DNA from: a virus
Lineage: Duplodnaviria; Caudoviricetes
Strand: one strand, 5' to 3'
IMG/VR virus record: IMGVR_UViG_3300047321_000298
Span: 32,001 to 96,000 of that record
Length of the DNA stretch: 64,000 nt
Shown: positions 57,962 through 60,419 of the stretch, one piece after another
Layout of the letters: each line of letters opens with the position of its first letter
Position numbering within the stretch: position 1 is the first letter of the stretch
The notes under the pieces: model-generated
Told to the model about the DNA's origin: nothing
Databases searched by the model: none
What the model saw: the letters and a program-made list of their open reading frames with translations, nothing else
Position numbers and translations under genes: made by a program

Positions 57962-57976
57962 ACTGAAACAAACTAC

Positions 57977-58107
57977 TGGTCGGAACAGCAGGAATCGAAC
58001 GCTGCGTCATCCTCTCCCTACCGGGCTTCAAGACACATGCGGTGTGCTGAGTGCATGCTGAATTGTGGGTCCCGGCGAGGATTACTCTACCTTTGAGCTA
58101 TGCTCCG
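57977..58107 (-). ncRNA. tRNA-Pro-like shell with anticodon arm expanded into a long nested helix
   Basis: Acceptor CGGAGCA/TGTTCCG + A-CCA; D arm GCTC-AAAGGTA-GAGT; bulged T arm; ATCCTC/GAGGAT, GCCGGG/CCCGGT, TTCA/TGAA, GCATGC/GCATGT. Confidence 0.72.
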
Positions 58108-58196
58108 AGTGGAACAGGGTGAGCGTGCGTGCGCTCAAGAAGTGGCGAGTTTCAGGCGGGCCTCTTTGTTGTGTTGCTCGCACGCTCAAAACTTAC

Positions 58197-58513: not shown

Positions 58514-58589
58514 TGGCTCCATAGCCTGGGCTCGAACCAGGGACCAACGGATTAACAGTCCGCTACTCTACCAACTGAGCTACTATGGA
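58514..58589 (-). tRNA. tRNA-Asn(GTT)
   Basis: Canonical 76-nt cloverleaf with CCA. Confidence 0.95.
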
Positions 58590-58608
58590 ACAGACGAGAA
58601 CTTAATTC

Positions 58609-58694
58609 GTATAGGCGGTGATGATCGAAGCCAGCGGGCCCGCTAGGAGGCGCGTACAAGGAAGACGCGCTACGACGATCATCACCGCCTATAC
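58609..58694. ncRNA. Candidate structured RNA: perfect 19-bp stem closing two hairpins
   Basis: GTATAGGCGGTGATGATCG / CGATCATCACCGCCTATAC; inner AGCG/CGCT and GCGCGT/ACGCGC hairpins. Confidence 0.55.
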
Positions 58695-58844
58695 AAACTT
58701 GAGGGGTGGAGACTTATCGTCTCCGACTTCTTGTGCCGACAGCAGGTAGCTAATCCGCTGAATACCTGTAGATTCAGGTTGTCCTGGTGCGCTAGACACT
58801 GCAGGCTCCGTTTCCAGAGCGTTGCAAGCGTGACCGGCGAATTC

Positions 58845-58920
58845 TGGCGAGGTGTAGGGGATTCGAACCCCTGACATGCGGATAGACAATCCGCTGCTCT
58901 ACCAACTGAGCTAACACCCC
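58845..58920 (-). tRNA. tRNA-Asp(GTC)
   Basis: Canonical cloverleaf with CCA. Confidence 0.95.
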
Positions 58921-58938
58921 TTTACTGATTGAAACTCG

Positions 58939-59097
58939 AAGGTCGGGCAGGATTCGAACCTGCGGACGGTATGGGAAAGTCGGACCTTTGACACCGATAG
59001 CCTGATCAGGAGCAACCGCCTACGCGTTGATGCTCTGGTCAGACAGTCCCAACCCGTTCTTGTCTCGGTCACCATTAAGCCACTCTGGCACCGACCC
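58939..59097 (-). ncRNA. tRNA-like shell (U73, Cys/Gly-type end) with ~110-nt structured insertion replacing the anticodon arm
   Basis: Acceptor GGGTCGG/CCGACCT; D arm CCA-GAGTGGCTTAA-TGG; perfect T arm GCAGG-TTCGAAT-CCTGC; no CCA. Confidence 0.72.
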
Positions 59098-59106
59098 TCA
59101 CAACTC

Positions 59107-59364
59107 TTAAGCTCCGTGCGGCGTCAGCCTTACATGCCCGTCGTCGCTAAGTACTGCCCGCCACTGATCACCACCGTGAGACTTTGGCGTTCGCATGATG
59201 TAGTGAACAGCATCACGTGTCCGGTACCCGCTGATGATGTGTACAGGAGGGTCCCAGCGCGCTTCGTTATCTCGCATTTCCGACACGGTCAGCGCCCGGG
59301 GCCAGGGCCAACTCTGCGGTTGCGTGACACCAAAGCCGAATATCGAAGACACCTCAACTTGCAC
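59107..59364 (-). CDS. Hypothetical protein
   Basis: GAGGTG RBS before GTG. Confidence 0.55.
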   Translation of the reverse strand: MQVEVSSIFGFGVTQPQSWPWPRALTVSEMRDNEARWDPPVHIISGYRTRDAVHYIMRTPKSHGGDQWRAVLSDDGHVRLTPHGA

Positions 59365-59388
59365 GGATCACCTCGTCAAAACGTTTAG

Positions 59389-59473
59389 TGGTGGGTGCGG
59401 AAGGATTCGAACCTTCGAAGGCAGAGCCGCCGGATTTACAGTCCAGCCCGTTTGACCGCTTCGGTACACACCC
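59389..59473 (-). tRNA. tRNA-Tyr(GTA)
   Basis: Class II cloverleaf with CCA. Confidence 0.95.
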
Positions 59474-59513
59474 ATTACTAAATGTTCCAATTACTACGGC
59501 CCAAAGAGTTGGG

Positions 59514-59624
59514 CATCCCCGGGAGGACTCGAACCTCACAGCGCCCCGTAACTGCTGTCGCAGCGCGAGACACGTCGGACCGAAGTCCGCACGTACAGGC
59601 TACCAATTACCTGCATACAGGGGT
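59514..59624 (-). ncRNA. tRNA-like RNA with cUUCGg tetraloop in place of the anticodon loop
   Basis: D arm CAGG-TAATTGGTAG-CCTG; CGGAC-TTCG-GTCCG; CTGC-GACA-GCAG; T arm GAGG-TTCGAGT-CCTC; acceptor 6/7 paired. Confidence 0.72.
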
Positions 59625-59635
59625 ACTGATACAAT

Positions 59636-59723
59636 TGGCGGAAGCGGTGAGATTCGAACTCACGGATAGTTTCCCATCGCCGGTTTTCAAGACCGGTGCC
59701 TTAAACCCCTCGGCCACACTTCC
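59636..59723 (-). tRNA. tRNA-Ser(TGA)
   Basis: Class II cloverleaf with CCA. Confidence 0.95.
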
Positions 59724-59909
59724 CCTTCACTAACCTATTTACTACAGCGCTTCGGTTTCCCGAAACTTTCTTTGCAAATCTTTCTGCTGTGCCCGACGCT
59801 GCTTCGACTGAACGTTGCGCCCGTGCTTTCCACGCTCGCGAAACATCATCTCTGCAATCATCGGGTTGCGCGGCTTCATCAGATTGTCCACCACGTTACC
59901 TTTTCAAAT

Positions 59910-59986
59910 TGGAGGCGGTACCCAGATTCGAACTGGGGAACCAAGGATTTGCAATCCTGGACCTTAGACCACTCAGACATACCGCC
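59910..59986 (-). tRNA. tRNA-Cys(GCA)
   Basis: TT-GCA-AA loop, U73, CCA. Confidence 0.9.
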
Positions 59987-59997
59987 GTATTTAAAAC

Positions 59998-60074
59998 TGG
60001 TGGGCCGTGCCTGACTCGAACAGGCAACCAACGAATTATGAGTTCGCTGCTCTAACCGCTTGAGCTAACGGCCC
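59998..60074 (-). tRNA. tRNA with CAT anticodon, Ile2 (lysidine) type most likely
   Basis: GGGCCGT acceptor and CT-CAT-AA loop resemble E. coli ileX. Confidence 0.88.
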
Positions 60075-60076
60075 AC

Positions 60077-60289
60077 TTACAGAATGAATAACAGTTCCCT
60101 GAGCTTGCCGTTCTGCTCCAGCAATACCTTGCAACCCGCGTCTCGCTGCTTCTGCAAGAAGCTCTCGGTGCTGATGGCCCTGCGTACGGCTTCTGACAGG
60201 CTGATGCTTTGCGATTCCGCTAGATACTGGAGAGCGTCAGCCACGTCCGGTGCGAGGTCTGCGTTCAATCTCACTTTCTTCGTCTTCAT
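60077..60289 (-). CDS. Ribbon-helix-helix (CopG-like) DNA-binding protein
   Basis: KVRLNADL...LQYLAE...SLSEAVRRAI. Confidence 0.75.
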   Translation of the reverse strand: MKTKKVRLNADLAPDVADALQYLAESQSISLSEAVRRAISTESFLQKQRDAGCKVLLEQNGKLRELLFIL

Positions 60290-60419
60290 TTTCTGCCCCG
60301 ATTCGGTGTTGTAACTGAGGCGATTTTACGGAGCAGTGAAGCGACTGTGTGATCGGTGTTCTACTAGGAGTACCGCAGAGCAGGTAAGTCTTTGATTCTA
60401 CAAGTAGCACCTGCAACAT

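What the first reader, a model, noticed from the sequence alone, without database searches (positions are those of the whole stretch)
59514..59624. tRNA-like RNA whose anticodon loop is a cUUCGg tetraloop and whose variable arm ends in GNRA
Seen: between tRNA-Ser and tRNA-Tyr lie a recognisable D arm (AATTGGTAG) and T arm (TTCGAGT). The anticodon arm is ACGT..CGGAC-TTCG-GTCCG-ACGT and the extra arm is CTGC-GACA-GCAG; there is no CCA. Established: UUCG and GNRA are the most stable RNA tetraloops. Two of them in one element indicate selection for a folded, non-decoding RNA rather than decay.
Basis: partly seen in the sequence, partly recalled or inferred. Interest (0 to 1): 0.75.

Follow-up and report, generated by a model that had tools for sequence, protein, structure and literature searches.

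The report
Non-decoding tRNA look-alike in phage tRNA cluster
A soil jumbo phage carries, between two normal tRNA genes, a gene for a tRNA-shaped RNA whose codon-reading loop is sealed by a four-base cap, so it cannot decode; it belongs to the poorly understood kind already seen as the tRNA-like stable RNAs of phage T5.

Summary
On the minus strand, 59624-59514 folds as a tRNA body: a 7-bp acceptor stem with one C.A mismatch, a D arm with an AAUUGGUAG loop, and a T arm with a UUCGAGU loop. The anticodon arm is a 3+5-bp helix capped by cUUCGg, and the variable arm is an 11-bp helix capped by GACA. ARAGORN and Rfam do not call it. ARAGORN does call a tRNA once the capped helix is swapped for a normal anticodon arm and the variable arm is shortened.

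"No CCA" is true only for the 7-bp register. The 3' tail GCCCAA pairs with downstream UUGGGC in a conserved hairpin.

Only three haplotypes exist. UUCG is invariant and GACA varies to GAAA, but that test has no power. There is no two-sided covariation.

Against the most distant carrier the element diverges 4.5%, versus 17% for the rest of the alignment and 7% for tRNA-Cys plus tRNA-Ser. The next relatives lack it: the Ser-Tyr slot is empty or holds an ORF.

Best reading (0.5): a co-transcribed, non-decoding tRNA mimic. It is the same kind as T5 RNA1 and RNA2, as a covarying metagenomic family found here, and as elements this scan noted before on other phage DNA. Main rival (0.3): a neutral relic. 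New member of a known kind; function open.

The parts
59499..59625 (-). Whole module: tRNA-shaped RNA plus 3' hairpin. It is present or absent as one unit between tRNA-Ser and tRNA-Tyr.
   Evidence: Folds. The indel boundaries come from comparing the spacer with L169, which has an empty slot.
59618..59624 (-). Acceptor stem, 5' strand (ACCCCUG). Position 2 is a C.A mismatch here and a U:A pair in L179.
59594..59615 (-). D arm: a 6-7-bp stem around the loop (U)AAUUGGUA(G), with the elbow GG. Invariant in all three haplotypes.
59573..59593 (-). Anticodon-arm substitute: 3 bp, a bulged G, then 5 bp closed by cUUCGg (UUCG at 59581-59584). There is no 7-nt loop.
   Evidence: UUCG is invariant. The lower stem has C:G to U:G in L003, and C.A plus G:U in L179.
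59543..59571 (-). Long variable arm: 6 + 5 bp with a small internal loop, capped by GACA (59556-59559). The cap is GAAA in L003 and L179.
59523..59537 (-). T arm: 4-bp stem GAGG/CCUC (the fifth layer is U.C) and loop UUCGAGU. L179 has one extra G in the 5' strand.
59514..59521 (-). Acceptor stem, 3' strand (CGGGGAU, 59515-59521) and discriminator G59514.
59499..59514 (-). 3' hairpin GCCCAA-CUCU-UUGGGC. It sequesters the discriminator and the would-be CCA. The loop is CUCA in L179.
   Evidence: 6 of 6 pairs invariant.

Best explanation
It is a gene for a tRNA-derived, non-decoding small RNA, that is, a tRNA mimic.

Inferred steps. It is transcribed with the minus-strand tRNA polycistron. RNase P releases its 5' end before A59624, because the acceptor/T stack, the U at -1 and the GCC after the stem are all tRNA-like. 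It folds into an L shape, because the D-loop GG and the T-loop U54/U55/C56/A58 elbow bases are intact.

Shown. The anticodon loop is replaced by a rigid cUUCGg-capped helix and the variable arm is a long GNRA-capped helix. The RNA therefore has no anticodon loop with which to read a codon, and none for an anticodon nuclease to cut. The 3' hairpin probably protects the end and argues against aminoacylation.

Most likely role (inferred, not shown). It occupies proteins that recognise the tRNA body, as a decoy or competitor in the tRNA-centred conflict with the host. The phage also carries its own tRNAs, an RtcB RNA ligase and YrlA-like RNAs. It is the same kind of thing as the 'tRNA-like stable RNAs with unknown functions' of phage T5.
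For: The tRNA body is intact and ARAGORN accepts it after the anticodon-arm swap.

It lies on the same strand as, and between, two real tRNAs, with no promoter- or terminator-like site on the minus strand nearby.

It is the lowest-diverging feature against L179: 4.5%, versus tRNA-Cys 5.2, tRNA-Ser 9.1, the small ORF 20.9 and tRNA-Tyr 32.9. Against the rest p=6e-5; excluding the two divergent tRNAs p=0.003.

Of the changes at stem positions (six positions), four keep the pair through G:U intermediates, and in L179 the acceptor stem is a perfect 7 bp.

No relative has a decoding tRNA in this slot. It is empty in L169-type contigs and holds an ORF in L181, so in-situ decay has no visible parent.

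The kind recurs. T5 RNA1 (same AAUUGGUAG D loop) and RNA2 are annotated stable tRNA-like RNAs in the T5 tRNA region, fold the same way and are also missed by ARAGORN. A metagenomic family of about 100-nt RNAs with a UUCG- or otherwise capped anticodon stem, A73 and CCA shows compensatory changes in 10 of 24 pairs.

The genome also has RtcB and further tRNA-shaped, non-decoding RNAs.
Against: There is no expression data; no RNA run holds the stretch.

Only three haplotypes exist and there is no two-sided covariation.

Mismatches sit in the acceptor stem (C.A) and T stem (U.C) of the window copy. L179 has a C.A in hairpin 1 and an inserted G in the T arm.

Against the closest haplotype, 3 of the 9 substitutions in 1.8 kb fall inside the element (p=0.015).

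It is absent from the next relatives.

Low divergence against L179 could reflect recent recombination, because the flanking spacers are about as conserved as the element.

The fold's z-score is modest.

No binding partner is identified. The decoy role is inference only.
Confidence: 0.5

Rival explanations
1. Neutral relic. It is a tRNA-derived sequence, a pseudogene or piece of junk cargo in a variable inter-tRNA slot, that is still transcribed and perhaps processed but does nothing and is on its way to loss.
For: It is restricted to one small clade and absent from the nearest other relatives. Mismatches sit in the acceptor, T and hairpin-1 stems, and L179 has an indel in the T arm. There is no covariation. 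Substitutions are locally enriched against L003. No homologue turned up in GenBank phages, IMG/VR, JGI metagenomes or GTDB genomes beyond the three haplotypes.
Against: Decay of a 7-nt anticodon loop does not produce a longer, almost perfectly paired helix closed by cUUCGg together with an 11-bp GNRA-capped arm. The element diverges as little as bona fide tRNAs and far less than the neighbouring ORF and spacers. The elbow nucleotides are invariant. No intact parent tRNA exists at this locus in any relative.
Confidence: 0.3
2. Cis-acting processing or stability module. The tRNA shape only recruits RNase P (with RNase Z or RNase E) to cut the polycistron, or the fold plus the 3' hairpin protects neighbouring tRNA precursors. 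The released RNA has no function of its own.
For: It sits inside a polycistronic tRNA cluster interspersed with small ORFs. The 3' hairpin is conserved. tRNA punctuation is an established way of cutting transcripts (own knowledge).
Against: It lies between two tRNAs that are themselves RNase P substrates, so an extra cutting signal is redundant. Relatives do without it, with a 27-nt Ser-Tyr spacer. It does not explain the capped helices.
Confidence: 0.1
3. Chargeable non-ribosomal adaptor. After 3' trimming and CCA use (8-bp register) or CCA addition, a synthetase that ignores the anticodon aminoacylates it (SerRS or LeuRS act on type-II tRNAs). The amino acid then goes to a non-ribosomal acceptor.
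For: It has a type-II body with a long variable arm. A CCA lies in phase with an 8-bp acceptor register. Anticodon-independent charging is established for Ser, Leu and Ala (own knowledge; irregular soil tRNAs that are charged but not used in translation are described in PMC5389517).
Against: The discriminator and CCA are sequestered in a conserved hairpin. The acceptor pairs A1:U72, C2.A71 and C3:G70, with G or C at 73, do not match the E. coli Ser or Leu identity sets (own knowledge). The phage has no CCA-adding enzyme gene. No transferase gene lies nearby.
Confidence: 0.05
4. A real decoding tRNA with an intron or an unusual loop.
For: A neighbouring element (57975-58110) was noted by the scan (e1-5411890) as a tRNA-Pro body whose 55-nt insert, if removed, would restore a Pro anticodon loop; here I confirmed only the body, an insert of about 60 nt and the CCA end. 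The phage has RtcB, the ligase used in tRNA splicing elsewhere.
Against: No excision I tried leaves a 5-bp stem with a 7-nt loop and U33. There is no bulge-helix-bulge motif. Opening the cUUCGg closing pairs gives 6- or 8-nt loops, never 7 (reading). ARAGORN in intron mode finds nothing in the L003 copy, which differs from the window's at three bases.
Confidence: 0.02

Closest known systems
Phage T5 'tRNA-like stable RNAs with unknown functions' RNA1 (144 nt), RNA2 (125 nt) and RNA3 (73 nt), as annotated in NC_005859
   Same: They lie in a phage tRNA cluster on the tRNA strand. They have paired 5' and 3' ends, a D arm and a GGUUC-type T arm. The region between D and T is expanded into long hairpins without a 7-nt anticodon loop. 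ARAGORN does not call them. RNA1 even has the same AAUUGGUAG D loop.
   Different: There is no detectable sequence homology. The T5 RNAs were seen as stable RNAs, while this one has no expression data. The T5 inserts are longer and are not simple tetraloop-capped helices. The host clades differ.
Metagenomic 'family F' found here (L124, L125, L127-L130, L057, L007, L015)
   Same: A type-II, Leu-like D arm; an anticodon stem closed by UUCG or extended into a longer hairpin; a long variable-arm hairpin; and a normal T arm and acceptor. Ten of 24 pairs show compensatory changes, so this architecture is under selection elsewhere.
   Different: Family F has a clean 7/5 structure, A73 and an encoded CCA (CCG in two members). 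Its members stand alone, not in tRNA clusters. Its covariance model scores the window element at only 16 bits, below real tRNAs, so it is an analogue and not a shown homologue.
allo-tRNAs and 'irregular tRNA' polycistrons of soil Acidobacteria and phages; tRNA-Sec (Mukai et al. 2017, PMC5389517)
   Same: A soil setting, a long variable arm, a 6-bp D stem, a possible long-acceptor/short-T reading (8 or 9 plus 4), and a suggested non-translational role for some members.
   Different: Those RNAs keep a 7-nt anticodon loop. Their D loop is a tetraloop, while here it is 8-10 nt with GG. The ninth acceptor pair is lost in L179.
YrlA / bacterial Y RNAs (Rfam RF02553) and the tmRNA tRNA-like domain
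   Same: They are tRNA mimics that keep the elbow and lack an anticodon. YrlA-like modules lie 4.5 kb away in the same cluster (scan note e1-5411886).
   Different: YrlA is circularly permuted and works with Ro60. There is no Rfam hit on this element and no TROVE gene in the genome. tmRNA needs G3:U70 and has no D stem, and neither applies here.
Phage T4 stable RNA species 1 and 2 (rnaD, rnaC); MHV68 vtRNAs (own knowledge, not checked here)
   Same: Virus-encoded, tRNA-cluster or tRNA-shaped stable RNAs that do not decode.

Membership tests
Canonical tRNA (Rfam RF00005 / ARAGORN) | 7-nt anticodon loop on a 5-bp stem | tested here: not met
   The loop is the 4-nt UUCG closed by C:G on a 3+5-bp helix. 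Opening pairs gives 6- or 8-nt loops.
Canonical tRNA (Rfam RF00005 / ARAGORN) | Detected by the family model | tested here: not met
   No RF00005 hit at E<=10 on the element alone or at E<=1 in 10 kb. ARAGORN finds nothing.
Canonical tRNA (Rfam RF00005 / ARAGORN) | Acceptor, D and T arms with elbow nucleotides | tested here: met
   ARAGORN calls a tRNA after the in-silico anticodon-arm swap with a shortened variable arm. GG is in the D loop and UUCGAGU in the T loop.
Canonical tRNA (Rfam RF00005 / ARAGORN) | Free discriminator plus CCA 3' end | tested here: inconclusive
   The 7-bp register gives G then CCC. The 8-bp register gives C then CCA. Both are sequestered in a conserved hairpin.
Phage tRNA-like stable RNAs (T5 RNA1/RNA2/RNA3 kind) | Lies in a phage tRNA cluster on the tRNA strand | tested here: met
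   It lies between tRNA-Ser and tRNA-Tyr on the minus strand.
Phage tRNA-like stable RNAs (T5 RNA1/RNA2/RNA3 kind) | tRNA-like ends, D and T arms, with the middle expanded and no anticodon loop | tested here: met
   for this element; for T5 RNA1 and RNA2.
Phage tRNA-like stable RNAs (T5 RNA1/RNA2/RNA3 kind) | Accumulates as a discrete stable RNA | not testable with these tools
   No RNA run holds the stretch.
Phage tRNA-like stable RNAs (T5 RNA1/RNA2/RNA3 kind) | Sequence homology to the T5 RNAs | tested here: not met
   blastn of the element against 50,697 phage records gives only two chance-level hits (E=1).
allo-tRNA / tRNA-Sec-like | Long acceptor with short T stem (8/4, 9/3, 8/5 or 9/4) | tested here: inconclusive
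   The window copy allows 9 pairs (one C.A) plus a 4-bp T stem. L179 loses the ninth pair and gains a G in the T arm.
allo-tRNA / tRNA-Sec-like | Long variable arm and 6-bp D stem | tested here: met
   11-bp variable arm and 6-7-bp D stem. The D loop, however, is 8-10 nt and not a tetraloop.
allo-tRNA / tRNA-Sec-like | Functional 7-nt anticodon loop (UCA for Sec) | tested here: not met
YrlA (RF02553) | Model match, permuted topology, Ro60 partner | tested here: not met
   No hit on the element. The topology is not permuted. There is no TROVE gene in the genome.
Metagenomic family F (model R2) | Scores above ordinary tRNAs with the family model | tested here: not met
   16.1 bits, E=0.028, below five real tRNAs in the window.

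The most novel reading that the evidence does not exclude
The RNA is a dedicated decoy. It presents a type-II tRNA body that has no cleavable anticodon loop. This titrates a host defence nuclease or other tRNA-modifying toxin that recognises the tRNA elbow, acceptor or long variable arm. That would protect the phage's and the host's tRNA-Ser, -Leu and -Tyr, working alongside the phage RtcB ligase and its own tRNA set.
Probability: 0.15. Interest if true: 0.7.

Novelty: new member of a known kind. Interest (0 to 1): 0.35.

Why it matters
Phage tRNA clusters are now read as counter-defence against tRNA-cleaving immunity. tRNA-shaped RNAs that cannot decode have been known in T5 (and T4) for decades without a function. 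This scan keeps finding them in unrelated phages.

This element is a small, clean example: about 125 nt, with two capped helices, an intact elbow, and a presence/absence polymorphism among close relatives. It could serve as a test case for whether such RNAs are decoys, processing signals or junk. It does not by itself open a new category.

Tried and rejected
1. Burkholderia phage FLC9, the best blastn hit to the flanks, has Tyr-Asn-Ser in another order and no element.

2. Model R1, built from the window and L003, finds only the element itself in the whole 245-kb genome. In 100 viral loci it finds only weak, tRNA-like matches.

3. The genome search 'relatives' is not available for virus records.

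4. The search for related loci with the 201-aa neighbour returned only the L003 contig. With the 45-aa neighbour in metagenome contigs it returned nothing.

5. The pattern D-loop...CTTCGG...T-loop in GTDB genomes returned ordinary tRNA-Leu genes with UUCG-capped variable arms, plus chance downstream matches.

6. The pattern with this element's D arm and T loop in JGI metagenomes returned five unrelated long tRNAs.

The matches are a heterogeneous mix of long tRNA-like genes, intron-bearing tRNA-Tyr and adjacent tRNAs, and are not homologues.

8. Model R2 of family F is not specific, because real tRNAs score higher than the element.

9. No RNA holder is listed among public runs. Laying contigs of four rhizosphere DNA runs gave only the L003 haplotype over the element in two runs. 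The other two had no contig covering it.

10. Rfam found no family at E<=10.

11. The intron hypotheses were rejected. Removing the hairpin-1 top, the hairpin-2 inner stem or both never restores a 5-bp stem with a 7-nt loop and U33.

12. Neither hairpin recurs elsewhere in the genome, so they are not repeated elements.

13. A possible group I intron in a second Leu-type tRNA-like RNA at genome position 124.5 kb has no Rfam intron hit.

Full report
**Setting.** The window is bases 32001-96000 of a 245.5-kb IMG/VR virus record with direct terminal repeats, that is, a jumbo phage. Public DNA runs that hold the stretch are rhizosphere metagenomes. A minus-strand tRNA cluster runs from about 55.2 to 63.2 kb. 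ARAGORN finds 11 genes in the window and the same 11 in the whole genome, one of them dubious, and no tRNA-Leu. The flagged interval lies between tRNA-Ser(UGA) 59636-59723 and tRNA-Tyr(GUA) 59389-59473.

**Observation.** Read on the minus strand, 59624-59514 has these parts:
- A 7-bp acceptor stem, ACCCCUG/CGGGGAU, with a C.A mismatch at position 2:71.
- U8-A9.
- A 6-7-bp D stem around the loop (U)AAUUGGUA(G).
- A helix of 3 bp, a bulged G and 5 bp, closed by cUUCGg.
- An 11-bp helix (6 + 5 bp) closed by GACA.
- A 4-bp T stem, GAGG/CCUC, with loop UUCGAGU.
- Discriminator G.

The minimum-free-energy fold returns these arms, but its z-score against shuffles is only -1.9. ARAGORN and the Rfam tRNA model do not call the element, and no other Rfam family matches even at E<=10.

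As a direct test of the body, I replaced the UUCG helix in silico with the anticodon arm of the neighbouring tRNA-Ser and shortened the variable arm. ARAGORN then called a tRNA using exactly the acceptor, D and T arms listed above. The native sequence, and the swap with the full-length variable arm, were not called. So the tRNA likeness is real, and the two non-canonical arms are what hide it.

- A CCA does follow, at 59512-59510, if U59625:G59514 is taken as an eighth acceptor pair with C59513 as discriminator. The real tRNAs of this phage all encode CCA.
- The tail GCCCAA (59514-59509) pairs with UUGGGC (59504-59499) in a 6-bp hairpin found in every copy.

**Relatives.** An exact-pattern scan of IMG/VR found one carrier, a 153.7-kb contig (L003). 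Over 6 kb it is 97.5% identical to the window.

A search with the 45-aa protein encoded 118 nt upstream of the element found three more groups. That gene is real: a divergent contig differs from it mainly at third codon positions. The groups are:
- L179/L180, 84% protein identity. They carry the element, scoring 128.7 bits with model R1.
- Ten contigs of the L169 type, 78% identity. They do not carry it. tRNA-Ser is followed after 27 nt by tRNA-Tyr.
- L181, 80% identity. The slot holds an ORF instead.

Comparing the spacers shows a clean indel. L169 keeps the same first 7 nt and last roughly 14 nt of the spacer. The element plus its 3' hairpin is the piece that is present or absent. So the unit is about 125-140 nt and includes the hairpin. 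The Ser-Tyr gap is a variable cargo slot. No relative has an intact tRNA there.

Contigs of two other rhizosphere runs carry the L003 haplotype. No further variant was found in GenBank phages, IMG/VR, JGI metagenomes or GTDB genomes.

**Evolutionary signal.** The three haplotypes differ by eight substitutions and one insertion.
- Inside the structure there is no pair with changes on both sides.
- Four one-sided changes keep a pair: C:G to U:G, U:G to U:A twice, and G:C to G:U.
- The C.A at acceptor position 2:71 is U:A in L179, which gives a perfect 7-bp stem.
- One pair of hairpin 1 is C.A in L179.
- GACA is GAAA in both L003 and L179.
- L179 has an extra G in the T-stem 5' strand.
- UUCG never changes. 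With eight substitutions on 116 nt, however, the seven constrained tetraloop bases escape by chance 61% of the time.

The more telling figures are rates. Against L179 the element has 4.5% substitutions. The comparison values are 5.2% for tRNA-Cys, 9.1% for tRNA-Ser (which shows three compensatory pairs), 20.9% for the small ORF, 32.9% for tRNA-Tyr and 17% for everything else aligned (p=6e-5; p=0.003 without the two most divergent tRNAs). The element is not different from tRNA-Cys plus tRNA-Ser together.

Two observations point the other way. Against L003, three of the only nine substitutions in 58600-60400 fall in the element (p=0.015). And the spacers next to the element are about as conserved as it is, so a recent recombination tract could mimic selection.

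**What it is not.**
- It cannot decode. The loop has four bases, and opening the closing pairs gives six or eight.
- No excision I tried yields a 5-bp stem with a 7-nt loop and U33, and there is no bulge-helix-bulge motif.
- It is not YrlA: there is no model hit, the topology is not permuted, and the genome has no TROVE gene.
- It is not a tmRNA-like domain, because it lacks G3:U70.
- It resembles allo-tRNAs and tRNA-Sec in its 6-bp D stem, long variable arm and possible 8- or 9-bp acceptor with a 4-bp T stem. But those RNAs keep an anticodon loop, and the ninth pair is lost in L179.

**The kind is known.** The T5 record NC_005859 annotates RNA1 and RNA2 as 'tRNA-like stable RNA with unknown functions' and RNA3 as 'putative tRNA-like RNA'. 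All three lie inside the T5 tRNA region. Folding them shows the same plan:
- RNA1 has paired ends, the same AAUUGGUAG D loop, a GAAGG/CCUUC T arm, and about 80 nt of hairpins in place of the anticodon and variable arms.
- RNA2 is similar.
- ARAGORN skips all three.

Independently, my pattern scan of IMG/VR turned up a family of about 100-nt RNAs with nine distinct sequences. These have a Leu-type D arm, an anticodon stem closed by UUCG or extended into a longer hairpin, a variable-arm hairpin, a 7/5 acceptor/T structure, A73 and CCA (CCG in two). Ten of 24 pairs show compensatory changes. Its model does not score the window element above real tRNAs, so I treat it as an analogue and not a homologue.

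The scan's index lists sealed-anticodon tRNA look-alikes in at least 18 other genomes. Those are unchecked notes and I do not count them as evidence.

**Context in this genome.**
- The cluster also holds YrlA-like modules next to a DUF7873 gene.
- It holds two further tRNA bodies with large inserts, at about 57975-58110 and 58935-59090. The latter is conserved in L169 and L181, where it ends in CCA.
- A stand-alone 153-nt Leu-type tRNA-like RNA with its own terminator lies at genome position 124531-124683.
- The phage encodes RtcB. It has no CCA-adding enzyme and no Rnl2-type ligase.

The phage therefore invests heavily in tRNA supply, tRNA repair and tRNA mimicry.

**Verdict.** The most likely reading (0.5) is a co-transcribed, RNase P-matured, non-decoding tRNA mimic with an intact elbow and acceptor. 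Its anticodon end is sealed, and its 3' end is probably protected by a hairpin. A decoy or competitor role for tRNA-body-binding proteins is the most plausible mechanism, but it is inference only.

A neutral relic remains a serious rival (0.3). The reasons are the narrow distribution, the stem mismatches and the lack of covariation. A cis processing role (0.1), a chargeable non-ribosomal adaptor (0.05) and an intron-bearing tRNA (0.02) are less likely.

It is a new member of a known but functionally unexplained kind. Interest is moderate to low for this single element. It would be higher for the class if one member were ever given a function.

Noticed in passing
window 58935-59090 (-): A roughly 155-nt tRNA-shaped RNA upstream of tRNA-Asp. 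It has a 7-bp acceptor, a type-II-like D arm, a GCAGG/CCUGC T arm and about 90 nt in place of the anticodon and variable arms. Homologues in the more distant relatives L169 and L181 end in ACCA.
   Followed up: partly
window 57975-58110 (-): A tRNA body (C1:G72, A73, CCA) with an insert of about 60 nt in the anticodon arm, just upstream of tRNA-Gln. An earlier scan note reads it as tRNA-Pro with an intron-like insert. The phage has RtcB.
   Followed up: no
G000:C1:124531-124683 (+), outside the window (L189:232-384): A stand-alone 153-nt Leu-type tRNA-like RNA. It has acceptor GGAGCGG/CCGCUCC, D arm GCGAAAUUGGUAGACGC, discriminator G and CCA. A 62-nt insert lies inside the anticodon stem, and a terminator-like hairpin follows. 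Rfam gives only a weak tmRNA hit (16 bits) and no group I intron hit.
   Followed up: partly
G000:C1:143003-144133 (+), outside the window: A full-length RtcB RNA ligase gene (407.6 bits). The genome has no TROVE/Ro60, no CCA-adding enzyme and no Rnl2-type ligase.
   Followed up: partly
window 59742-59894 (-): A 45-50-aa, highly basic protein gene between tRNA-Cys and tRNA-Ser. A divergent contig differs from it mainly at third codon positions, and homologues at 78-84% identity occur in all related contigs, so it is a real gene. It has no Pfam family on record (precomputed column; not scanned here).
   Followed up: partly
window 58547-58563 (-), tRNA-Asn: Between the window and L003, tRNA-Asn differs by two blocks of three adjacent bases. 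By their positions these look like compensatory changes in the anticodon stem.
   Followed up: no
window 59474-59635 compared with L169:4753-4779 and L181:474-785: The tRNA-Ser to tRNA-Tyr gap is a variable cargo slot among relatives. It is empty (27 nt), holds an ORF of about 90-120 aa, or holds the tRNA-like module.
   Followed up: yes
L124, L125, L127-L134, L057, L007, L015 (IMG/VR contigs): A covarying family of about 100-nt anticodon-less, Leu-type tRNA-like RNAs with A73 and CCA. They stand alone, not in tRNA clusters. In both loci examined (L127, L128), radical-SAM genes lie within 1-2 kb. There is no match in GenBank phages.
   Followed up: partly
L008, L032, L039 (IMG/VR contigs): Type-I tRNA-Tyr(GUA) genes with an insert of 25-29 nt right after position 37, as in eukaryotic or archaeal intron-bearing tRNA-Tyr. 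They sit in contigs filed as viral.
   Followed up: no
L169:6470-6600 and L181:1610-1740: Relatives carry a composite tRNA-like RNA with two T arms in tandem (GGUUCGAGUCC, then about 55 nt, then GGUUCGAUUCC) behind one D arm.
   Followed up: no
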